Source: a virus
Virus genome (UHGV): UHGV-0337617
Length of the DNA: 22,339 nucleotides
Strand: one strand, 5' to 3'
Made by a program: the position numbers and the translations under genes. The notes beneath the pieces were generated by a model. That model searched no databases. It was not told the DNA's origin and worked only from the letters and a program-made list of their open reading frames with translations. Numbering within the stretch: position 1 is the first letter of the stretch; each line of letters opens with the position of its first letter. Shown one piece after another: positions 3,129-20,154 of the stretch.

Positions 3129-4442
3129 TTAACTTACTGATTTTAATAAGCCTCTGGTGTCACTTTGGTGACTATGGGGCATCATTGGGACATAATCTGT
3201 CAGCTTCTGATTCAGCATTGCGATCTGTTCTGCATTGCTGTCAGTCATCCATGCTCCGTATACATTGAATACCATCTGGGCACTTGCATGGCCCATCTGG
3301 CTGGCAATGAAGCTTGGGTTTGCTCCGGCAGATAATGACCAGCACGCATAAGTGTGTCGTGACTGGTATGCCTTTCGATGCCTGATCCCTGCACGCTTAA
3401 TGGCTGTTTCCCATGAGTCACCTACAGAATCGACTTTGTAGACAAAACCTACCTGTTCGCTTTTTCTAACCACTTGAGGGTTAAACACGAAAGTACATTC
3501 ATGGTTCACTGAACGTCCATATTCACGTAGTTGCACCTTGATGTTGTACTGCTTACCCAGTCTTGTCATTTCAGCCTGATTTTTCAGGACACTGATAGCG
3601 GGCTGGATAAGGTGCACAACCCTGTTTGTGCTTGCTTCAGTTTTCGGTAGAGTGAACTCACCAAGTTTCGTATAATTGCGCCTGATGGTAATTGTTCCTG
3701 CCTTCAGATCGATATCTTCCCAGGCCAGGGAGACCAGTTCACCGTGACGCATTCCTGTGTACACAGCCAATGACCACAGGTTTTTCGTCTGCTGATGTCG
3801 GCAAGCATCTATCAGGCGAATAAATTCGTCACGAGTTAGCGGATCTGGCTCTGCCCTGGCTCTTTTAAGAGGCTTAATTCCCTGGAAGGGATTTGCTTCT
3901 AAGTAACCGTGATCTGCAGCAAACTGAAACATTCCAGCGATTGTCGTCATGTAATAATTTACAGTAACGACGCTCCGTCCTTTTGCTGCTGCTTTGTTTT
4001 TCGTTGAATTCTGATACCCGGTCAGCAAATCTTTCCTGATATACAGCAATTCCTCTTTGGTTACCGATGACACCAGTTTACTGCCTCCAATTTTCGGAAC
4101 CATCGTTCTTGCAACGGATTCATAGCGATTGAATGCATTTGCAGAGATTTCCATTCGTTTCAGATCCAGCCACTTTTCTTCAAGTTCCTTCACCGTAATT
4201 TCTTTTTTACTTACCCCAAAAGCCTGAAGGTTGGGGGAGTCAGGGAACTGTGCAGCATAATCAAAGCTTCCTGTGCGGATGGCAAAACATACTGATGTCC
4301 GCAGTTCCCCGGCGATCTTCCTGTTCTTGGCAGTGTCAGGGACACCAAGATTTTCCCTGACACGTTTACCTTTAAAATTAAACCAGATGCGTAATGTGCC
4401 GCCGTGGTTTTCGACGCCTGTTGGATATTTGACTTTATCCAT
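3129..4442 (-). CDS. int: Tyrosine recombinase / phage integrase
   Basis: 437 aa; C-terminal catalytic region with R...HxxR...Y pattern (GMRHGELVSL, RHTYACW, NVYGAW); GGAGGT RBS; xis-like gene immediately upstream. Confidence 0.9.
   Translation of the reverse strand: MDKVKYPTGVENHGGTLRIWFNFKGKRVRENLGVPDTAKNRKIAGELRTSVCFAIRTGSFDYAAQFPDSPNLQAFGVSKKEITVKELEEKWLDLKRMEISANAFNRYESVARTMVPKIGGSKLVSSVTKEELLYIRKDLLTGYQNSTKNKAAAKGRSVVTVNYYMTTIAGMFQFAADHGYLEANPFQGIKPLKRARAEPDPLTRDEFIRLIDACRHQQTKNLWSLAVYTGMRHGELVSLAWEDIDLKAGTITIRRNYTKLGEFTLPKTEASTNRVVHLIQPAISVLKNQAEMTRLGKQYNIKVQLREYGRSVNHECTFVFNPQVVRKSEQVGFVYKVDSVGDSWETAIKRAGIRHRKAYQSRHTYACWSLSAGANPSFIASQMGHASAQMVFNVYGAWMTDSNAEQIAMLNQKLTDYVPMMPHSHQSDTRGLLKSVS
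3174..3192. repeat. Second copy of TGGGGCAT(C)ATTGGGACA repeat at the 3' end of int; candidate arm-type site
   Basis: Matches 2965-2982 except one base; lies inside the last codons of int. Confidence 0.4.
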
Positions 4443-9462: not shown

Positions 9463-10119
9463 TCAGAAAATATCCCACCTGGCATCAACCACAACACCTA
9501 CTATTTCGCAATCATTGTCCATTTCTATGATTGGATATTGTGGATTAAGGGGCTTTAGAAACGCCTTTCCCATGTCAGAAATATATTTTTTGAATGTTGC
9601 TTCATTGGTGGATTTTTTTCTGGCGATGACGTAACACCCTGAAAAAACTTCTTTATCTGGGTTGACAAGGATCGACATTCCTTCAGGAAATGTTATTCCT
9701 ACGGGCGAAGTCATTGAGTCTCCGTGCACTTCCAGCCAGAACCCCCTCTCACCAGCGTATTTTACAGAATGCCTCCAATTATCCTGATCATACATGTTGT
9801 AGTCATCACCAGAAGTTGCGAATAATCCTGCCTGAACCCAGTTAATTACAGGGTAAGAGTGTGCTGTGTCTCTCTGTGGGCAGCTCTTAACATTATTTTC
9901 CCAATGCTTATCTTTTTCATCTCCGTTCTGAAGCCACTGCGGTGAACACCGCAGTGCAGCTGCAACTTTAAAAAGGGTGTCACCGTTGAAACTTTTTGTA
10001 AGGCCTTGCTCGGCTTTACTGATTGCAACTCTGGTGATCCCAGCTTTTTTAGCCAACGCATCTTGTGTTAACCCAGCTTTTTGCCGTGCGTTGATGAGAC
10101 GTTCACCTAAAGACTTCAT
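9463..10119 (-). CDS. cI: cI-like phage repressor with HTH and S24 (LexA-like) autopeptidase domain
   Basis: C-terminal FWLEVHGDSMTSP...FKK...LNPQYP resembles lambda cI; N-terminal HTH (MKSLGERLINARQKAGLTQDALAKKAGI); GAGGAG RBS before Met26 of the longest ORF. Confidence 0.85.
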   Translation of the reverse strand: MKSLGERLINARQKAGLTQDALAKKAGITRVAISKAEQGLTKSFNGDTLFKVAAALRCSPQWLQNGDEKDKHWENNVKSCPQRDTAHSYPVINWVQAGLFATSGDDYNMYDQDNWRHSVKYAGERGFWLEVHGDSMTSPVGITFPEGMSILVNPDKEVFSGCYVIARKKSTNEATFKKYISDMGKAFLKPLNPQYPIIEMDNDCEIVGVVVDARWDIF

Positions 10120-10143
10120 TTTTCTTCTCCTCTCATGGCTGTT

Positions 10144-10213
10144 GATACTAAAGTAACAGAATTTCTTGATACTTTGGATTCCCGCGGTTAACATCGTTGG
10201 ATAACAAAGTATC
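10144..10213. promoter_or_regulatory. Putative right operator (three 14-bp sites of the same class)
   Basis: GATACTAAAGTAAC (10144-10157), GATACTTTGGATTC (10168-10181), GATAACAAAGTATC (10200-10213, palindromic); between divergent cI and rightward genes. Confidence 0.55.
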
Positions 10214-10230: not shown

Positions 10231-10458
10231 ATGACCCTTTATGAAATATTAAAAATTCAATTTAAAACCAATGCCGCTATTGGTCGCAGGTTCCCAAAGA
10301 AAGGAAGGCCTCGTGGCAGTCAAGGTGTTGGAAAGTGGAAAACGCGAGGTGTTCCGGAGGATGTTGCCATTCTTTGTCATCTGGATCCGAGCATTCCATA
10401 TACACACCCAAGTCTAGCGAATACAGAAGATGACAAGCCCACAGGAGACCAACAATGA
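10231..10458 (+). CDS. Hypothetical small basic protein in the cro position
   Basis: First rightward ORF after the operator; weak RBS and no clear HTH, so coding status is uncertain. Confidence 0.3.
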   Translation: MTLYEILKIQFKTNAAIGRRFPKKGRPRGSQGVGKWKTRGVPEDVAILCHLDPSIPYTHPSLANTEDDKPTGDQQ

Positions 10459-11162
10459 ACACCGCAATTTTTAACGGCAAAGCATCCATGACCAGCGTTG
10501 AGATCGCAGAGCTGGTGGGTAAACGTCATGACAATGTGAAACGCACTATTGAAACATTAGCCAAAGGTGGCGTTGTCCGGTCTCCTCAAATTGAGGTTTC
10601 CGAAAGAATCAATAACTTAGGTTTTAAAGTTCAATATGAGCATTACCTGTTTGAAGGAGAACAAGGTAAGCGCGACAGCATCATTGTCGTCGCACAGCTC
10701 TGTCCTGAATTCACTGCTCGCCTGGTAGATCGCTGGCACGAACTGGAAGAACAGATCCGTAAGCCAATGAGCGAAATCGAAATGGTTGCCGCGATGGCTC
10801 TTGAAGCAGTTCGTCAGCAGAAACGGATCACTCAGGTGGAAGAAAAAGTCAGCCACGTTGCTGAAACAGTCGAGCAAATTAAAAAGGGCACTATTCGTGA
10901 GGGCTATGCCGGATATCGCCAACTGAAAGCAAAAACCGGTTTGTCAGATGATAAATGCCGCAATCTGGTGAACGCCTATCAGATTCCTACAGACACCCAT
11001 GAGTTCATGACGCCGGACGGATTGTTGTCACGTCGCGCAATTGTTGCTGTGGAACCGTTTATGGCTGCTTTTTATCGGGTTATGGAGGAAGCAGAACCGC
11101 GAGGGACTCGCTGGTATCACCCGAAAATGGGGTTATTTCAGGTTATTGGTTGGCAGCGGTGA
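10455..11162 (+). CDS. Rha-family phage regulatory protein
   Basis: 235 aa; N-terminal region resembles Rha family (SVEIAELVGKRHDNVKRTIETL); AGGAGA RBS; ATGA overlap with previous ORF. Confidence 0.7.
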   Translation: MNTAIFNGKASMTSVEIAELVGKRHDNVKRTIETLAKGGVVRSPQIEVSERINNLGFKVQYEHYLFEGEQGKRDSIIVVAQLCPEFTARLVDRWHELEEQIRKPMSEIEMVAAMALEAVRQQKRITQVEEKVSHVAETVEQIKKGTIREGYAGYRQLKAKTGLSDDKCRNLVNAYQIPTDTHEFMTPDGLLSRRAIVAVEPFMAAFYRVMEEAEPRGTRWYHPKMGLFQVIGWQR

Positions 11163-11384
11163 AAAAAAGCCGGGAGTAACCCGGCTCACTCAACATCAAT
11201 AACGGGGAGCTGTTTCGCATAAAACGGCTCCGAAACATCCAAGAACAGTTCTAAAGATATCAGCAGCTATATGATCATTTCAAGACCAAATATTGATTCT
11301 GCAATTTCGGGACGTTACACTGTCTCCGCACCTTATAAAGCGGGTGCCGGGGGTCGCAGCCCGGAATTGTCAACGGCGATATAT

Positions 11385-11404
11385 GACGCGCCAGCGTCTT
11401 TTTT
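11385..11404 (+). terminator. Putative intrinsic terminator inside the early-right operon
   Basis: GACGC-GCCA-GCGTC hairpin followed by TTTTTT. Confidence 0.4.
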
Positions 11405-11570
11405 ATCGTCCGCGCTCACGCACGCCAGAATTATGGTGGGCTGGGCAGGGGAGCCGAAAGGCTCGCCGGTCTCCGTTGACGCCGGTACTGCGAACCCTGT
11501 TCAGTCTGCCACCAGTGAGTTTCGCAGCTCCGGTGGTGGAAGTTTTCCACAGTCAACGGAGGCTGCCATC

Positions 11571-12122
11571 ATGGCTACGATCCCAACCCTCACTCAACCT
11601 GAAATTGCCATCGTTGATGGTCAGGCTGTTACTTCATCCCTGGCTGTTGCCAACTTCTTCTCCAAGCGTCATGACGATGTACTGAAAAAGATCCGCACGC
11701 TTGAATGCTCCGCATCATTCACTGCCCGCAATTTTTCGGTGAGTGATTACACCGATTGCACAGGCCGCAAACTACCTTGCTATCAAATCACCCGTGATGG
11801 CTTCGCGTTCCTTGCTATGGGCTTTACTGGCAAACGTGCAGCCCGGTTCAAAGAGGCATACATCAACGCCTTTAACCTGATGGAGAAGAGTTTATCAGGT
11901 GCCGATGCGTCTGATATGTCAGCTGTCGCACGAAACGCCAGAGGCGTATACCTGCATTTGCGTGAAATCCATCAAATCTGGACAAGCCAGCTTTATCCAA
12001 TGCTTAAGGCCGTTGAATCTCCGCTGGCTAGCAAACTGTACGACCGTGTTGGTGATGCTGTTTTTGGCGCTGCACTTGTTGATTCCAGGCTGAATGGTTC
12101 TGACAAGGAGGTTCGCCCATGA
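11571..12122 (+). CDS. Rha-family phage regulatory protein (second copy, divergent sequence)
   Basis: GGAGG 8 nt upstream of ATG at 11571; PEIAIVDGQAVTSSLAVANFFSKRHDDVLKKIRTL is Rha-like; the ORF is open upstream to 11271 but that extension is low-complexity. Confidence 0.6.
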   Translation: MATIPTLTQPEIAIVDGQAVTSSLAVANFFSKRHDDVLKKIRTLECSASFTARNFSVSDYTDCTGRKLPCYQITRDGFAFLAMGFTGKRAARFKEAYINAFNLMEKSLSGADASDMSAVARNARGVYLHLREIHQIWTSQLYPMLKAVESPLASKLYDRVGDAVFGAALVDSRLNGSDKEVRP

Positions 12123-12313
12123 TTAGTTACGAAATCATCATCTCCACTACGGAATACAGAAACGATGTATCAGTTCGCACGGATGTATCTGTCTGGCACC
12201 GTCGCTATAAATCCAGAAAAACAGCGGAACTGAAAGCGGCAGAGATGTGTGAAACCATCTCAATGAAAGGTAGCCCGGTTAAATACGTAACTACGGTGGA
12301 GGTGCGTCCATGA
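12119..12313 (+). CDS. Hypothetical protein (64 aa)
   Basis: ATGA overlap with previous gene. Confidence 0.45.
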   Translation: MISYEIIISTTEYRNDVSVRTDVSVWHRRYKSRKTAELKAAEMCETISMKGSPVKYVTTVEVRP

Positions 12314-12534: not shown

Positions 12535-12830
12535 ACTGTTTTCAGTTTGTGTGCGGATGTGCTTTCGATAACCCGATTCAGCGCCTAATTATGTTGCGTG
12601 TTTTGATGTCGGGTTCTTCAGACGGTGAAGGCGAGAGAGTTATTGATCATCAGGTGCTTGCTGATTTCTGCTGTTGTTCTAAGCAAGCGATATTCAGGGA
12701 AACCCTGGCACTGGAAAGAGCTGGTTATCTTCATATCCGAAAAATTGCAACGCTTACTATTGATGCAAAAGCCAGACTACAACCTGCGCGTGGCTACACA
12801 ATTCTCATGCCGCGGAAGGAGGTTGTATGA
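12531..12830 (+). CDS. Hypothetical protein (99 aa)
   Basis: 4-nt overlaps on both sides; precedes replication genes. Confidence 0.45.
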   Translation: MNCFQFVCGCAFDNPIQRLIMLRVLMSGSSDGEGERVIDHQVLADFCCCSKQAIFRETLALERAGYLHIRKIATLTIDAKARLQPARGYTILMPRKEVV

Positions 12831-13819
12831 GCCGTTACGCCCCCACACCGGAAGTTATGGCTATTGGTCAAATTAATATTTCCGGCAATGTTACACCTGC
12901 GAACTGGTGGAAATATATTCGACTACCCAGTGGGCGTCCGGATGCGACGGCTATCGCTCTGCTTTCAGAGATCGTTTACTGGTACCGCCCGACAGAGGTC
13001 AGGGATGAGCACACCGGAGCGTTGTTGGGATATCGCAAGCGTTTTCAGGGCGACAAACTGCAAAGAAGCTACCAGGCGTTTGCTGAGCAGTTTGGTTTCG
13101 GGAAAAGGGAAACCGCAGATGCGCTGAAGCGTCTGCGCGATGCAGGGTTTATTACTCTGGATTTACGCACGGTGGAAATGCTCGATGGGGTGAAATGCAG
13201 CAATATTTTGTTTGTCGGGATCAACCCACAGGCAATTGCGGCCATCACCACACCTTCTTCTGTTTCGCCAGAAAGTAACAGCAATAATGCAATCAGCGAT
13301 ACAGCTATTACGTTAAAACGGAACACCCCCCGACGTCATAACGGAACAGGGGATACGCCGAATGTTGATACAAATACAGAGATTACTACAGAGATTACAA
13401 CGGAGACTAAAAACACTATTGATGCATCCGCTGACGCGTCTGCGCCAGCGCGTTCTGCCCGACAGGAATATTCACCGGAATTTGAACAGGCCTGGCAGGA
13501 ATATCCCAAACGTGCTGGTGGCAATTCCAAGTCAGCAGCCTTCAAAGCCTGGAAAGCCCGTATCAGGGAGGGAATAAAACCGGAGACCATGCTTGATGGC
13601 GTGAAGCGGTATGCCGCCTGGGTACGTGCTACAGGAAATACCGGCACACAGTTCGTGAAGCAGGCTGCGACGTTCTTTGGACCCGATCGTCACTTCGAAG
13701 ATTACTGGCAACAGCCAGCCGCTCACGGAGGTGGGCGACAGCGACAGGTCGATGTCCTGGCTGGCCTGGGAGCCATGTCTGACAAATTCGGTAAATCCAG
13801 TAACAAATTGACATTCTGA
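12827..13819 (+). CDS. Replication initiation protein (O-like), with internal tandem repeats
   Basis: 330 aa; GGAGG RBS; immediately upstream of DnaC-like and DnaB-like genes; central TEITTEITTETK linker encoded by tandem 12-bp repeats. Confidence 0.65.
   Translation: MSRYAPTPEVMAIGQINISGNVTPANWWKYIRLPSGRPDATAIALLSEIVYWYRPTEVRDEHTGALLGYRKRFQGDKLQRSYQAFAEQFGFGKRETADALKRLRDAGFITLDLRTVEMLDGVKCSNILFVGINPQAIAAITTPSSVSPESNSNNAISDTAITLKRNTPRRHNGTGDTPNVDTNTEITTEITTETKNTIDASADASAPARSARQEYSPEFEQAWQEYPKRAGGNSKSAAFKAWKARIREGIKPETMLDGVKRYAAWVRATGNTGTQFVKQAATFFGPDRHFEDYWQQPAAHGGGRQRQVDVLAGLGAMSDKFGKSSNKLTF
13376..13411. repeat. Tandem 12-bp repeats ACAGAGATTAC(T/A) x2 plus a degenerate third; candidate origin iterons inside the O-like gene
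   Basis: acagagattact / acagagattaca / acggagactaaa read directly. Confidence 0.35.
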
Positions 13820-19462: not shown

Positions 19463-19538
19463 GGCCCTTTAGCTCAGTGGTGAGAGCGAGCGACTCATAA
19501 TCGCCAGGTCGCTGGTTCAAATCCAGCAAGGGCCACCA
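19463..19538 (+). tRNA. tRNA with CAT anticodon (Ile2/Met type; ileZ-like)
   Basis: Hand-folded cloverleaf: acceptor GGCCCTT/AAGGGCC, D-stem GCTC/GAGC, anticodon loop CTCATAA, T-arm GCTGG-TTCAAAT-CCAGC, 3' CCA. Confidence 0.8.
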
Positions 19539-19547
19539 TATCACATA

Positions 19548-19624
19548 CCGCCATTAGCTCATCGGGATAGAGCGCCAGCCTTCGAAGCTGGTTGCGCGGG
19601 GTTCGAGTCCTCGATGGCGGTCCA
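19548..19624 (+). tRNA. tRNA-Arg (anticodon TCG; argN-like)
   Basis: Acceptor CCGCCAT/ATGGCGG, anticodon stem CCAGC/GCTGG with loop CTTCGAA, T-arm CGGGG-TTCGAGT-CCTCG, 3' CCA. Confidence 0.8.
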
Positions 19625-19637
19625 TTATCTGTACCCT

Positions 19638-19714
19638 GCGTTGTTAGCTCAGCCGGACAGAGCAATTGCCTTCTAAGCAATCGGTCACTGGTTCGAATCC
19701 AGTACAACGCGCCA
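19638..19714 (+). tRNA. tRNA-Arg (anticodon TCT; argO-like)
   Basis: Acceptor GCGTTGT/ACAACGC, anticodon loop CTTCTAA, T-arm ACTGG-TTCGAAT-CCAGT, 3' CCA. Confidence 0.8.
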
Positions 19715-19728
19715 GACTTATTTTTCCC

Positions 19729-19753
19729 GGCTCGCTTTTGCGGGCCTTTTTTT
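19729..19753 (+). terminator. Putative intrinsic terminator after the tRNA cluster
   Basis: GGCTCGC-TTTT-GCGGGCC hairpin (one G-U pair) followed by TTTTTTT. Confidence 0.5.
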
Positions 19754-19952
19754 AAATGTCTCACAATTCAGACGGTTGACAGTTGTCTGTTTTGCGGGGA
19801 GTTTGTTAAAAGAAACTGGCATGGTGAATCCCCCTGTGCGGAGGGGCAATCAGCGAGTAGGTATATGGGATAATCGCGGATTCAGGTGCTGGTACTGAAT
19901 TCACCGGGAGGCACCCGGCACCATGCAGTTGACTGAAACCATGTATACTCTC

Positions 19953-19983
19953 AGGCCCCACGCACATGTGTTGGGGCCTTTTT
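19953..19983 (+). terminator. Putative intrinsic terminator upstream of the lysis cassette
   Basis: GGCCCCA / TGGGGCC perfect 7-bp stem with 11-nt loop, followed by TTTTT. Confidence 0.5.
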
Positions 19984-20154
19984 ACATGCAAAAAAAAGCC
20001 CGCATATGGATACGGGCGGCAAGGAACAAAAAACGTGAAGTGATCTATTCAGCCAGTGGATAATACCCTGACGTTACCATATTGCGCAATCGCGCATTCT
20101 TTCTTTTTCGCTCCCCTTATAACTACGCCATCCGTTCGCTGCGGAGGTGAGGCT

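What the first reader, a model, noticed from the sequence alone, without database searches (positions are those of the whole stretch)
11163..11570. 400-bp spacer with terminator-like hairpins between two Rha-family genes
There is a hairpin preceded by an A-run right after the first Rha gene (minus-strand terminator-like), then a GACGC/GCGTC hairpin with T-run on the plus strand. The second Rha gene has a GGAGG-supported start at 11571, although the frame is open for 100 codons upstream encoding low-complexity sequence. This may be a regulated attenuation point or hold a small antisense RNA.
Basis: seen in the sequence. Interest (0 to 1): 0.4.

Follow-up and report, generated by a model that had tools for sequence, protein, structure and literature searches.

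The report
P4-type RNA immunity cassette before Rha gene
The "spacer" between the two Rha genes of this E. coli prophage is not empty: it holds two known small-RNA genes (IsrK/SeqA and C4/CI) whose exposed loops pair with the ribosome-binding site of the second Rha gene. This is a well-known phage RNA switch that public annotation hides inside a protein-coding gene.

Summary
Both hairpins, the GGAGG-supported ATG at 11571 and the 100-codon open frame from 11271 are there.

The plus-strand GACGC/GCGTC + T-run hairpin is the terminator of an IsrK/SeqA-type sRNA (11328-11404, Rfam 58.7 bits). Next to it lies a C4/CI-type antisense RNA (11429-11516, 78.8 bits).

The two exposed C4 segments, b' (11470-81) and a' (11488-94), are complementary to:
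- b2/a2 in the Rha2 leader, where b2 (11552-62) covers the Shine-Dalgarno sequence;
- b1/a1 inside IsrK.

Across more than 150 related cassettes these three site sets co-vary (24 b keys, 14 a keys, freely reassorted). The RNA helices show compensatory changes.

The "low-complexity" frame is Pfam PF10554. In phage P4 that family matches the eta ORF overlying SeqA and CI RNA, not epsilon. The frame stays open and in phase in all Rha/Kil-type relatives, so the RNAs and a nested long ORF coexist as in P4 eta/kil.

This is the P4 / P1 c4 / Gifsy-1 IsrK system: a new member of a known kind, of low to moderate interest.

The minus-strand terminator and the flank 11163-11285 are conserved but unexplained. 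They may encode an OOP-like antisense sRNA.

The parts
11162..11186 (-). Intrinsic-terminator-like hairpin read on the minus strand: stem AGCCGGG/CCCGGCT, then U7 (A-run 11162-11168 on the plus strand). It abuts the Rha1 stop codon. It is part of the Rha1-linked flank, not of the RNA cassette.
   Evidence: The stem is unchanged in 22 of 23 distinct flank variants of three diverged types; one variant (L179) has a single substitution in the 3' arm.
11206..11231 (.). Second hairpin of the flank (GGAGCUGUUU/AAACGGCUCC). The structure is kept at this position in flank types P and Q with different sequence. The strand on which it acts is unresolved.
   Evidence: G.U asymmetry gives contradictory signals.
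11254..11283 (-). Minus-strand promoter-like site, TTGAAA-18-TGnTATCTT. Hexamers and spacing are kept in the three flank types while the spacer diverges. With the terminator it would give an RNA of about 85 nt (about 11247 to 11162). Hypothetical.
   Evidence: There is no expression data. No Rfam family matches above threshold (sroD 24.5 bits against a gathering score of 50).
11271..11273 (+). ATG of the nested long ORF (283 aa, "Ash-Rha", the counterpart of P4 eta). It is conserved as ATGAT in every context. In the window it lacks a Shine-Dalgarno sequence and is not coupled to an upstream gene.
11293..11321 (+). Candidate sigma-70 promoter of the cassette: -35 TTGATT (11293-98), 17 nt, -10 TACACT (11316-21). 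The start site would be near 11328. It lies in the same register as P4 PLE and Gifsy-1 PisrK.
   Evidence: Alignments. It matches 8 of 12 consensus positions, below the scan threshold. The position is conserved in P4, Gifsy-1, APSE-3 and an N15-like phage.
11328..11404 (+). IsrK/SeqA-type sRNA. Hairpin 1 is 11328-33/11342-47. Hairpin 2 is 11348-51/11360-63, with site a1 (TCGCAG, 11354-59) in its loop. Site b1 is TGTCAACGG (11368-76). The terminator is GACGC/GCGTC (11385-98) plus U6.
   Evidence: Rfam RF01394, 58.7 bits against a gathering score of 50. Hairpin 1 is 97% paired with 4 of 6 pairs compensatory. The a1/b1 pairing with C4 is 96.6% paired with 12 of 14 pairs compensatory.
11429..11516 (+). 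C4/CI-type antisense RNA. Closing stem P1 is 11434-50/11495-511. P2 is 11451-55/11460-64. P3 is 11465-69/11482-86. Exposed loop b' is UCUCCGUUGACG (11470-81). Exposed strand a' is CUGCGAA (11488-94). A 3' CCA follows (11512-14). The conserved AUG 11433 (the orf45 start in Gifsy-1) lies at the 5' edge of stem P1 and overlaps its first two pairs.
   Evidence: Rfam RF01695, 78.8 bits against a gathering score of 45. MFE -47.8 kcal/mol, z -4.34. P1 is 99.7% paired with 7 compensatory pairs; P2 is 98.5% paired with 4 of 5 compensatory.
11506..11539 (+). Alternative hairpin. The C4 3' strand CUGCCACC (11506-13) pairs with GGUGGUGG (11532-39), presenting target site a2 (TTCGCAG, 11521-27) in the loop. 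It is mutually exclusive with C4 stem P1.
   Evidence: 97.2% paired, 4 of 8 pairs compensatory. The a'-a2 duplex is -10.5 kcal/mol.
11552..11562 (+). Target site b2, GTCAACGGAGG, which includes the Shine-Dalgarno GGAGG (11558-62) of Rha2. It forms 11 pairs with loop b' (10 Watson-Crick and one G.U).
   Evidence: Inverted repeat I4. Duplex energy -18.8 kcal/mol, 0 of 1000 shuffles as good. 91.7% paired with 9 of 11 pairs compensatory.
11571..12122 (+). Regulated gene: a Rha-family (Bro-network, antirepressor-like) protein of 183 aa. The start context GGAGGCTGCCATCATGGCTAC is identical to that of P4 kil.
   Evidence: PF09669, 104 bits. PHROG 821/995/518. P4 comparison.

Best explanation
Positions 11286-11570 are a P4-type RNA immunity cassette placed in front of, and nested inside, a Rha-family gene of an E. 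coli lambdoid prophage.

Proposed sequence of events:
1. A constitutive promoter (-35 at 11293, -10 at 11316) starts transcription near 11328.
2. Most transcripts stop at the IsrK terminator (11385-11404), giving a SeqA/IsrK-type sRNA of about 77 nt that displays sites a1 and b1.
3. Read-through transcripts contain the C4/CI-type RNA (11429-11516). By analogy with P1 and P4, this is cut out of the precursor.
4. The two exposed C4 segments pair with a2 (11521-27) and b2 (11552-62) in the leader. Because b2 contains the Shine-Dalgarno sequence, Rha2 translation from ATG 11571 is blocked. As in P1 and P4, the untranslated message is then probably terminated, which would also silence genes downstream.
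5. IsrK carries the same two sites and competes for C4. It would act as a decoy/activator as in Gifsy-1, or as a second target as seqA does in P4.
6. A long ORF (ATG 11271, or AUG 11433) runs in phase through both RNAs into Rha2. When transcription arrives from the early promoter upstream, ribosomes reading this frame would unfold the RNAs and bypass the block, as P4 eta does. In this window that start lacks a ribosome-binding site, so this last step is the least certain.

Shown here: the RNA families, their folds, the three-way complementarity and its covariation, and the conserved nested frame.

Inferred from homologous systems: promoter activity, processing, repression, polarity, and the roles of IsrK and the long ORF.
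For: - RNA families: Rfam gathering-level hits to isrK and C4. The same pair, in the same order, occurs in P4 (SeqA/CI), Gifsy-1, phiP27, ST64B, an N15-like phage and APSE-3.
- Folds: C4 and IsrK helices are 97-100% paired with many compensatory changes, and no shuffle reaches the observed values (0 of 500).
- Pairing between sites: b'-b2 is 91.7% paired with 9 of 11 pairs changed on both sides. For a1-a' and b1-b', 96.6% of cells are paired, against 63.8% in shuffles and 35-48% with slid partners.
- Alignment-free check: cognate Watson-Crick matches average 6.9 nt (a) and 7.6 nt (b), against 3.4 and 3.7 nt for non-cognate pairs.
- RNA-level constraint: b1 often pairs through G.U where b2 is Watson-Crick.
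- Wider survey: of 125 cassettes found, the 116 that could be parsed carry 24 b keys and 14 a keys in 39 combinations. All but about five of these combinations (short-b'-loop types) show cognate a1/a2 and b1/b2 sites; in those five the best b1 or b2 match is uncertain.
- Energetics: the b'-b2 duplex is -18.8 kcal/mol and covers GGAGG. The whole leader folds at z -5.46.
- Nested frame: PF10554 hits the frame over the RNAs here and the eta ORF of P4, not epsilon. The frame is open and in phase in all Rha/Kil-type relatives, and all net indels are multiples of 3.
- Literature: PMC4825925 (Gifsy-1 IsrK), PMC3632133 (IsrK = seqA, C4 = CI, also in lambdoid prophages), PMC10111431 (CI and seqA inside eta; eta/kil logic), 10.1101/2020.03.17.996009 (APSE).
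Against: - There is no expression, processing or repression data for this locus.
- The promoter matches only 8 of 12 consensus positions and was not called by the scan.
- IsrK alone does not fold better than shuffles (z -0.65).
- ATG 11271 has no Shine-Dalgarno sequence and is not coupled to an upstream gene, so bypass by translation is doubtful here.
- The Gifsy-1 study explains activation through a separate orf45, which does not exist as a separate ORF in this window.
- The covariation counts use related sequences, so the shuffle control overstates significance. The slid-partner control does not have this weakness.
Confidence: 0.82

Rival explanations
1. Protein only. The region simply encodes the N-terminal "Ash" domain of a 283-aa Ash-Rha protein, as RefSeq annotates it, and the RNA-family matches have no function.
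For: - PGAP annotates 11271-12122 as one CDS, or a separate "ash family protein" in other genomes.
- PF10554 scores 52.5 bits.
- The frame is open in all Rha/Kil-type relatives, and the ATG at -99/-100 codons has a strong Shine-Dalgarno sequence and ATGA coupling in many contexts.
Against: - The RNAs and their pairing sites are conserved where the frame is closed: Gifsy-1 has 3 stops, APSE-3 has 5, the N15-like phage has 2.
- Helices show compensatory and G.U changes.
- The sites vary at all codon positions, yet always stay complementary to each other.
- The amino-acid sequence between the RNA elements is poorly conserved (read).
- CI, c4 and IsrK are experimentally shown RNAs (PMC4825925, PMC10111431).
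Confidence: 0.03
2. Passive terminators. The hairpins only end or attenuate transcription between two independent Rha genes, and no trans-acting RNA is involved.
For: There are two terminator-like hairpins. The IsrK terminator is a genuine read-through point in Gifsy-1 (PMC4825925).
Against: This does not explain the 88-nt C4 fold, the three-way covariation of sites a and b, or why b2 sits on the Shine-Dalgarno sequence. The first hairpin terminates only on the minus strand.
Confidence: 0.04
3. Additional, not exclusive. The Rha1-linked flank 11162-11283 encodes a minus-strand sRNA of about 85 nt. It would run from a promoter-like site at 11283..11254 to the terminator at 11186..11162. It would be antisense to the early read-through transcript just upstream of the long-ORF start, like lambda OOP.
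For: - The terminator stem, the A/U run, the -35/-10 hexamers with TGn and 18-nt spacing, and the block ATCCAAGAAC are all kept in three flank types of about 70% identity.
- The second hairpin is kept with compensatory sequence changes.
- The minus-strand fold has z -2.97.
- The position, between early regulators and replication genes, matches lambda oop (own knowledge).
Against: - The promoter-like count is not above chance (6 against 3.9 +/- 2.2).
- The -35 overlaps codons of the long ORF, so its conservation may have another cause.
- G.U asymmetry in hairpin 2 favours the plus strand in the window type (L024, L194) and the minus strand in type P (L179).
- No Rfam match reaches threshold.
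- The RNA would end at the Rha1 stop codon and would not overlap the Rha1 coding sequence.
Confidence: 0.3
4. A variant of the main model for the role of IsrK. Sites a1/b1 would not be a decoy that activates Rha2 (the Gifsy-1 model). They would be a second cis target whose pairing with C4 enforces early termination (the P4 seqA model).
For: The cassette, including the start context of the downstream gene, is closest to P4. TraDIS data indicate that IsrK-like elements are needed in P4-like prophages (PMC3632133).
Against: The only direct test in a lambdoid prophage, Gifsy-1, showed trans-activation by IsrK (PMC4825925). The b1 pairing is usually weaker than b2 (G.U pairs), which fits a competitor that can be titrated.
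Confidence: 0.3

Closest known systems
Satellite phage P4 immunity region (PLE - seqA - CI RNA - seqC - kil, nested in eta)
   Same: - Same two Rfam families in the same order.
- Same a/b site logic, with b2 on the kil Shine-Dalgarno sequence.
- Identical start context GGAGGCTGCCATCATGGCTAC, and related first residues (MATTLTPSHPE in P4, MATIPTLTQPE here).
- A long ORF starting upstream of the internal promoter, in phase with the short gene, and hit by PF10554.
   Different: - The downstream domain is Rha (183 aa), not the 65-aa Kil.
- P4 has 84 extra nt between SeqA and CI.
[quoted passage not shown]
- The host element is a lambdoid prophage, with the cassette in the early-right operon upstream of the replication genes.
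Phage P1/P7 ImmI (c4 antisense RNA - icd - ant)
   Same: The C4 family was defined on c4. Two exposed segments a'/b' pair with a2/b2 downstream and a1/b1 upstream on the same transcript, and b2 covers a ribosome-binding site. Key differences give heteroimmunity (Citron & Schuster 1990, as cited in 10.1101/2020.03.17.996009 and PMC12197685).
   Different: In P1 the occluded ribosome-binding site belongs to a small upstream ORF (icd) coupled to ant (own knowledge). Here it belongs to the Rha gene itself.
Salmonella Gifsy-1 isrK - orf45 (STnc1160) - anrP
   Same: It is a lambdoid prophage. IsrK scores 79 bits and C4 scores 69 bits, in the same layout. The gene downstream is antirepressor-like. 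The conserved AUG in the C4 5' strand is the orf45 start. IsrK activates in trans (PMC4825925).
   Different: - orf45 is a separate ORF ending at anrP, whereas here the same AUG (11433) is in phase with Rha2 and no stop intervenes.
- AnrP has an ORF6N domain, not a Rha domain.
- The Gifsy-1 cassette lies downstream of the Q gene, not in the early operon.
Phage-plasmid N15 anti-immunity region and APSE phages
   Same: The isrK + C4 pair lies upstream of Bro-network genes. APSE records already annotate both RNAs and their a'/b' sites.
   Different: The frame over the RNAs is closed, and the downstream genes differ (a 66-76-aa protein, Bro-N). Control of the N15 antirepressor by a small processed RNA is recalled from Ravin et al. 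1999 (own knowledge, not read here).

Membership tests
C4 antisense RNA (Rfam RF01695; P1/P7 c4, P4 CI) | Covariance-model score at or above the curated gathering score | tested here: met
   78.8 bits against 45, full-length match 1-87.
C4 antisense RNA (Rfam RF01695; P1/P7 c4, P4 CI) | Long closing stem with two internal hairpins, supported by compensatory changes | tested here: met
   P1 is 99.7% paired (7 of 17 pairs changed on both sides). P2 is 98.5% paired (4 of 5). P3 is nearly invariant (a single G-C to G-U change in one of 40 sequences; 100% paired). MFE z-score -4.34.
C4 antisense RNA (Rfam RF01695; P1/P7 c4, P4 CI) | Two exposed segments (a', b') complementary to two sites downstream on the same strand (a2, b2), with b2 over a ribosome-binding site | tested here: met
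   b'-b2 forms 11 pairs including GGAGG. a'-a2 forms 7 pairs. The sites co-vary across 39 key combinations.
C4 antisense RNA (Rfam RF01695; P1/P7 c4, P4 CI) | A second copy of the target sites upstream (a1, b1) | tested here: met
   a1 at 11354-59 and b1 at 11368-76. 96.6% of cells paired, 12 of 14 pairs compensatory. The Rfam c4-a1b1 model itself scores only 18.5 bits against 46.7.
C4 antisense RNA (Rfam RF01695; P1/P7 c4, P4 CI) | Stable RNA of about 70-80 nt processed from a precursor (RNase P), which represses the downstream gene in trans | not testable with these tools
   Only the 3' CCA after the closing stem (11512-14) can be seen in the sequence.
IsrK / SeqA sRNA (Rfam RF01394) | Covariance-model score at or above the gathering score | tested here: met
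   58.7 bits against 50.
IsrK / SeqA sRNA (Rfam RF01394) | Own promoter directly upstream and a Rho-independent terminator that allows read-through into the C4-like RNA | tested here: inconclusive
   The terminator is called. The promoter hexamers TTGATT-17-TACACT lie at the position conserved in P4, Gifsy-1, APSE and the N15-like phage, but match only 8 of 12 positions and were not called by the scan.
IsrK / SeqA sRNA (Rfam RF01394) | A separate small ORF (orf45), translationally coupled to the antirepressor gene (Gifsy-1 model) | tested here: not met
   AUG 11433 is conserved, but its frame runs into Rha2 without a stop.
IsrK / SeqA sRNA (Rfam RF01394) | Hfq binding and trans-activation of the long transcript | not testable with these tools
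   -
P4-type nested eta/kil arrangement (Pfam PF10554 'Phage_ASH') | PF10554 match to the frame that overlies the two RNAs | tested here: met
   52.5 bits against a cut-off of 26, for 11271-11570. The same family hits the P4 eta ORF at 82 bits, while P4 epsilon hits PF25738 instead.
P4-type nested eta/kil arrangement (Pfam PF10554 'Phage_ASH') | A long ORF starting upstream of the internal promoter, in phase with the short gene | tested here: met
   ATG 11271 is 100 codons upstream and in phase. No in-frame stops occur in any of the 34 E. coli-type modules, phiP27, ST64B or P4. All 62 wider cassettes of the MAT[IV]PT/MTTLPT classes keep the frame open.
P4-type nested eta/kil arrangement (Pfam PF10554 'Phage_ASH') | [quoted passage not shown] | tested here: not met
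   In the window there is no Shine-Dalgarno sequence, and a 108-nt gap separates the ATG from Rha1. In many other contexts there is ATGA overlap with GGAGG-type Shine-Dalgarno sequences.
Rha family (Pfam PF09669), the regulated gene | Pfam domain match above the cut-off | tested here: met
   104.3 bits against 29.9, residues 21-106 of the 183-aa protein.
Lambda OOP-like antisense RNA (considered for flank 11162-11283) | A leftward promoter and intrinsic terminator giving a short RNA antisense to the early rightward transcript, between regulators and replication genes | tested here: inconclusive
   The terminator is strong and conserved. The promoter-like hexamers are conserved but not above chance. 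There is no overlap with the Rha1 coding sequence. The strand signal from G.U pairs is contradictory.

The most novel reading that the evidence does not exclude
The a and b sites form a combinatorial two-key RNA lock. At least 14 a keys and 24 b keys reassort by recombination in front of near-identical Rha and other Bro-network genes. This would give each prophage, each tandem cassette and each P4-like satellite its own orthogonal, or deliberately shared, immunity specificity. The result would be an RNA-based cross-talk network among co-resident mobile elements. Here it may be joined by a third, undescribed minus-strand sRNA in the Rha1 flank.
Probability: 0.35. Interest if true: 0.45.

Novelty: new member of a known kind. 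Interest (0 to 1): 0.25.

Why it matters
- Gene model. Three nested in-phase starts (11271, 11433, 11571) and two sRNA genes share the same DNA. RefSeq shows only one 283-aa CDS and no RNA.
- Pfam family. PF10554 ("Ash") is the protein shadow of the SeqA/IsrK and CI/C4 genes, not P4 epsilon. This matters for pipelines that use it as an epsilon marker.
- Role in this prophage. The cassette sits in the early operon ahead of the replication genes. A small RNA made in the lysogen may therefore form a second immunity layer over a Rha-type, antirepressor-like regulator.
- Wider use. The covarying key sets offer many natural orthogonal RNA-target pairs for testing specificity. The underlying principle (P1/P7 heteroimmunity, P4 immunity) is already established.

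Tried and rejected
- Rfam at a permissive E-value over 11100-11620 added only sub-threshold hits: sroD at 24.5 bits, c4-a1b1 at 18.5 bits and BcKCsr2.
- The 8-mer GTTTCGCA in the loop of flank hairpin 2 (11212-19) repeats a2. I considered it a third C4 target and rejected that. The same flank accompanies cassettes with other a keys (L020, L021, L037, L048), and an 8-mer repeat within 500 nt is about what chance gives.
- The alignment-based count for a'-a2 was dropped because a 3-nt indel shifts the register in alignment A1. An alignment-free test replaced it.
- The first cognate versus non-cognate test, which allowed G.U pairs and used whole segments, discriminated poorly (10.1 against 6.6 nt). 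It was redone with Watson-Crick pairs only and restricted zones.
- Orthogonality of keys in tandem cassettes is only marginal. No keys are shared among 9 co-resident pairs (P about 0.035-0.055 by resampling).
- Using G.U asymmetry to assign a strand to flank hairpin 2 gave opposite answers in different flank types.
- Searches for diverged copies of the flank in phage records found only copies at least 99% identical. E. coli genomes and IMG/VR yielded two further flank types.
- Forti 1999 (PMC94026) and Sabbattini 1995 (PMC176756) are not held. The P4 eta/kil logic is cited through PMC10111431 and my own knowledge.
- No protein-database search, structure prediction or custom covariance model was run. 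None was needed for the verdict.
Full report
**Observation**

The window is an E. coli prophage; it is 99.9% identical to several chromosomes. Its layout:
- integrase, 3129-4442 (minus strand);
- LexA-family cI-like repressor, 9463-10194 (minus strand);
- a rightward early operon: a small ORF (10231-10458), Rha1 (10455-11162), the 408-nt "spacer", Rha2, then a replication initiator (12827-13819), a DnaC-like loader and a DnaB-like helicase.

- Minus-strand terminator-like hairpin: A7 followed by AGCCGGG/CCCGGCT, 11162-11186.
- Plus-strand hairpin: GACGC/GCGTC at 11385-98, then T6.
- GGAGG at 11558-62, 8 nt before ATG 11571.
- A frame open from ATG 11271.

Terminator-like hits as such are not more frequent than in shuffles (6 against 3.4). 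The hairpins become meaningful only through what follows.

**What the region is**

A scan of the whole window against Rfam at gathering thresholds places two RNA genes in the spacer:
- isrK (RF01394) at 11328-11404, 58.7 bits;
- C4 antisense RNA (RF01695) at 11429-11516, 78.8 bits.

The same two families, in the same order and orientation, occur in P4, Gifsy-1, phiP27, ST64B, an N15-like phage and APSE-3. In P4 they correspond to the SeqA and CI RNAs. In Gifsy-1 the pair lies upstream of anrP. The APSE-3 record already annotates both RNAs.

Barquist et al. (PMC3632133) state that IsrK and C4 are the seqA and CI of P4 and that lambdoid prophages carry such systems. Hershko-Shalev et al. (PMC4825925) worked out the Gifsy-1 case.

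Homology to other phages begins at about 11286, just upstream of a -35/-10 pair: TTGATT at 11293-98, 17 nt, TACACT at 11316-21. This pair is in register with the promoters of P4, Gifsy-1, APSE and the N15-like phage. The segment 11163-11285 belongs to a different module that travels with Rha1.

**Anatomy and pairing**

C4 folds into a 17-bp closing stem with two hairpins (MFE -47.8 kcal/mol, z -4.34). This leaves a 12-nt loop b' (UCUCCGUUGACG, 11470-81) and a joining strand a' (CUGCGAA, 11488-94) unpaired.

| C4 segment | Partner | Location | Duplex energy |
|---|---|---|---|
| b' | b2, GTCAACGGAGG (11552-62), contains the Shine-Dalgarno sequence | Rha2 leader | -18.8 kcal/mol, 0 of 1000 shuffles as good |
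| b' | b1, 11368-76 | single-stranded linker of IsrK | -15.4 kcal/mol |
| a' | a2, TTCGCAG (11521-27) | Rha2 leader | -10.5 kcal/mol |
| a' | a1, TCGCAG (11354-59) | loop of IsrK hairpin 2 | -9.7 kcal/mol |

Site a2 sits in the loop of a hairpin whose stem is the C4 3' strand (11506-13) paired with GGUGGUGG (11532-39). This helix excludes the C4 closing stem and is itself supported by covariation (97.2% paired, 4 of 8 pairs compensatory).

The complete leader folds far better than shuffles (z -5.46), with the Shine-Dalgarno sequence paired in cis.

**Comparative test**

Eighty IMG/VR loci encode Rha2 homologues of 82-100% identity. Their upstream regions nevertheless fall into sharply different types: identity in the C4 segment drops to about 60% while the promoter stays at 81-100%.

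I aligned 40 sequences, including P4, Gifsy-1, phiP27, ST64B, the N15-like phage and APSE-3 (alignment A1). Results:
- Intramolecular helices plus b'-b2: 94.6% paired against 82.3% in shuffles and 37-47% with slid partners. C4 P1 is 99.7% paired, P2 is 98.5% paired, and b'-b2 is 91.7% paired with 9 of 11 pairs changed on both sides.
- a1-a' and b1-b': 96.6% paired against 63.8% in shuffles, with 12 of 14 pairs changed on both sides.
- a'-a2, tested without an alignment because of a register shift: a perfect 6-8-nt Watson-Crick match in every type, against 3.4 nt on average for non-cognate pairs.
- b1 frequently pairs through G.U where b2 is Watson-Crick (for example GAUUACUG against GACUACCG). 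This is expected for a constraint acting at the RNA level, not for a DNA repeat.

A pattern scan of IMG/VR gave 125 further cassettes, of which 116 could be parsed. They carry 24 b keys and 14 a keys in 39 combinations. All but about five of these (short-b'-loop types, where the best b1 or b2 match is uncertain) have matching a1/a2 and b1/b2 sites, and in most combinations b2 runs into the Shine-Dalgarno sequence.

Seven contigs carry two or three tandem cassettes about 655 bp apart, and these never share a key. This is only marginally non-random (P about 0.035).

**The open frame**

The translation of 11271-11570 matches Pfam PF10554 "Phage_ASH" (52.5 bits). In P4, PF10554 matches the long ORF that overlies SeqA and CI, which is eta with kil as its last 65 codons. 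It does not match epsilon, which hits PF25738. The P4 kil start context (GGAGGCTGCCATCATGGCTAC) is identical to the Rha2 start.

Evidence that the frame is maintained:
- The frame in phase with the downstream ATG has no stop in any of the 34 E. coli-type modules, phiP27, ST64B or P4. The other frames carry up to 7 stops.
- All net indels are multiples of three, including +84 nt in P4.
- In the wider set, all 62 cassettes followed by MAT[IV]PT or MTTLPT genes keep at least 99 open codons.
- The frame is closed in Gifsy-1, APSE-3 and the N15-like phage, where the RNAs are nevertheless intact.

So the RNAs are the universal feature, and the nested ORF is a feature of one clade.

In many contexts the ATG at -99/-100 codons overlaps the stop of the upstream gene (ATGA) behind a GGAGG-type Shine-Dalgarno sequence. 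This matches the eta-alpA coupling described for P4 (PMC10111431). In the window the same ATGAT is present, but there is no Shine-Dalgarno sequence, and the ATG lies 108 nt from Rha1.

The conserved AUG 11433, at the 5' edge of the C4 closing stem (overlapping its first two pairs), is the orf45 start of Gifsy-1. Here it is in phase with Rha2. Three nested products are therefore possible: 283, 229 and 183 aa. RefSeq annotates only the 283-aa CDS and no RNA.

**Mechanism**

Shown here: the family membership, the folds, the three-way complementarity with covariation, occlusion of the Shine-Dalgarno sequence by b', and the conserved nested frame.

Inferred from P4, P1 and Gifsy-1:
- constitutive transcription from the internal promoter;
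- termination at the IsrK terminator, with partial read-through;
- excision of C4;
- a block of Rha2 translation, with likely Rho-dependent polarity on downstream genes;
- competition by IsrK for C4;
- bypass when ribosomes read the long frame on transcripts from the early promoter.

No plus-strand terminator separates Rha1 from the cassette, so early transcripts should enter it.

**The other hairpin**

The flank 11163-11285 exists in three types of about 70% identity. All keep the following:
- the A-run with the GCCGGG/CCCGGC stem;
- a second hairpin at the same place with different, compensating sequence;
- the block ATCCAAGAAC;
- the minus-strand motif TTGAAA-18-TGnTAT(C/T)TT;
- the long-ORF ATG.

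This fits a minus-strand sRNA of about 85 nt, analogous in position to lambda OOP. However, the promoter call is at chance level, the G.U evidence for strand is contradictory, and no Rfam family matches. I leave it as an open candidate with a probability of about 0.3.

**Verdict**

This is a real, functional-looking feature, but of a well-described kind: the P4 / P1 c4 / IsrK RNA immunity cassette. It is a new, unannotated member placed in front of a Rha gene in the early operon of a lambdoid prophage. Interest is low to moderate.

Noticed in passing
window 19463-19989: Three tRNA genes (Met-CAT, Arg-TCG, Arg-TCT; 19463-19714) are followed by a strong STnc100 sRNA match (19790-19989, plus strand, 140 bits against a gathering score of 47). 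This arrangement is typical of the late-promoter region of lambdoid and Stx-type prophages.
   Followed up: no
L087 (phage P4) 8168-8812 and 7888-8175, minus strand: Pfam PF10554 "Phage_ASH" matches the P4 ORF overlying SeqA and CI RNA (eta), not epsilon, which matches PF25738. A P4-satellite survey (10.1101/2021.03.30.437493) used PF10554 as its epsilon marker, so that marker actually detects the RNA immunity locus.
   Followed up: partly
L086 (Gifsy-1) 34131-34214 and about 34080-34095, minus strand: In Gifsy-1 the loop of the C4-like RNA (UCGGUGAU) is directly complementary to AUCACCGG(AGG), the Shine-Dalgarno region of anrP, and a' is complementary to a site in the leader. The published model (PMC4825925) explains control through orf45 and IsrK and does not invoke this pairing.
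   Followed up: partly
L114 (three cassettes), L101, L102, L144, L156, L162, L205: These IMG/VR contigs carry tandem arrays of two or three cassette-plus-gene units, mostly about 655 bp apart (up to about 870 bp in L162 and L205). Each unit has a different a key and b key; no key is shared among 9 co-resident pairs (P about 0.035).
   Followed up: partly
L002 1250-1503: This is a natural deletion variant. The Rha1 coding sequence is joined at a short repeat (ATGACGC) to the IsrK terminator. The internal promoter and most of IsrK are lost, leaving one open frame that runs Rha1 - C4 - Rha2.
   Followed up: no
window 11271-12122; L001, L208, L209: RefSeq/PGAP annotates the cassette as coding sequence only. 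It is labelled either "Rha family phage regulatory protein" (283 aa, WP_024226990.1) or a separate "ash family protein". No ncRNA feature is given, although both Rfam models pass their gathering scores.
   Followed up: yes
window 11237-11246 and flank types P and Q (for example L147, L206): The 10-nt block ATCCAAGAAC is kept nearly unchanged in three otherwise diverged Rha1 flanks (one variant, L264, has a single substitution). It lies between the second hairpin and the long-ORF ATG. Its function is unknown. It could be the single-stranded 5' part of the candidate minus-strand sRNA.
   Followed up: partly
window 12098-12124: The Rha2 stop overlaps the start of the next ORF (ATGA) behind AAGGAGG. 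The same junction sequence precedes the long-ORF ATG of cassettes in other phages (for example L058), which indicates that cassette-plus-gene units are stacked head to tail through translational coupling.
   Followed up: partly
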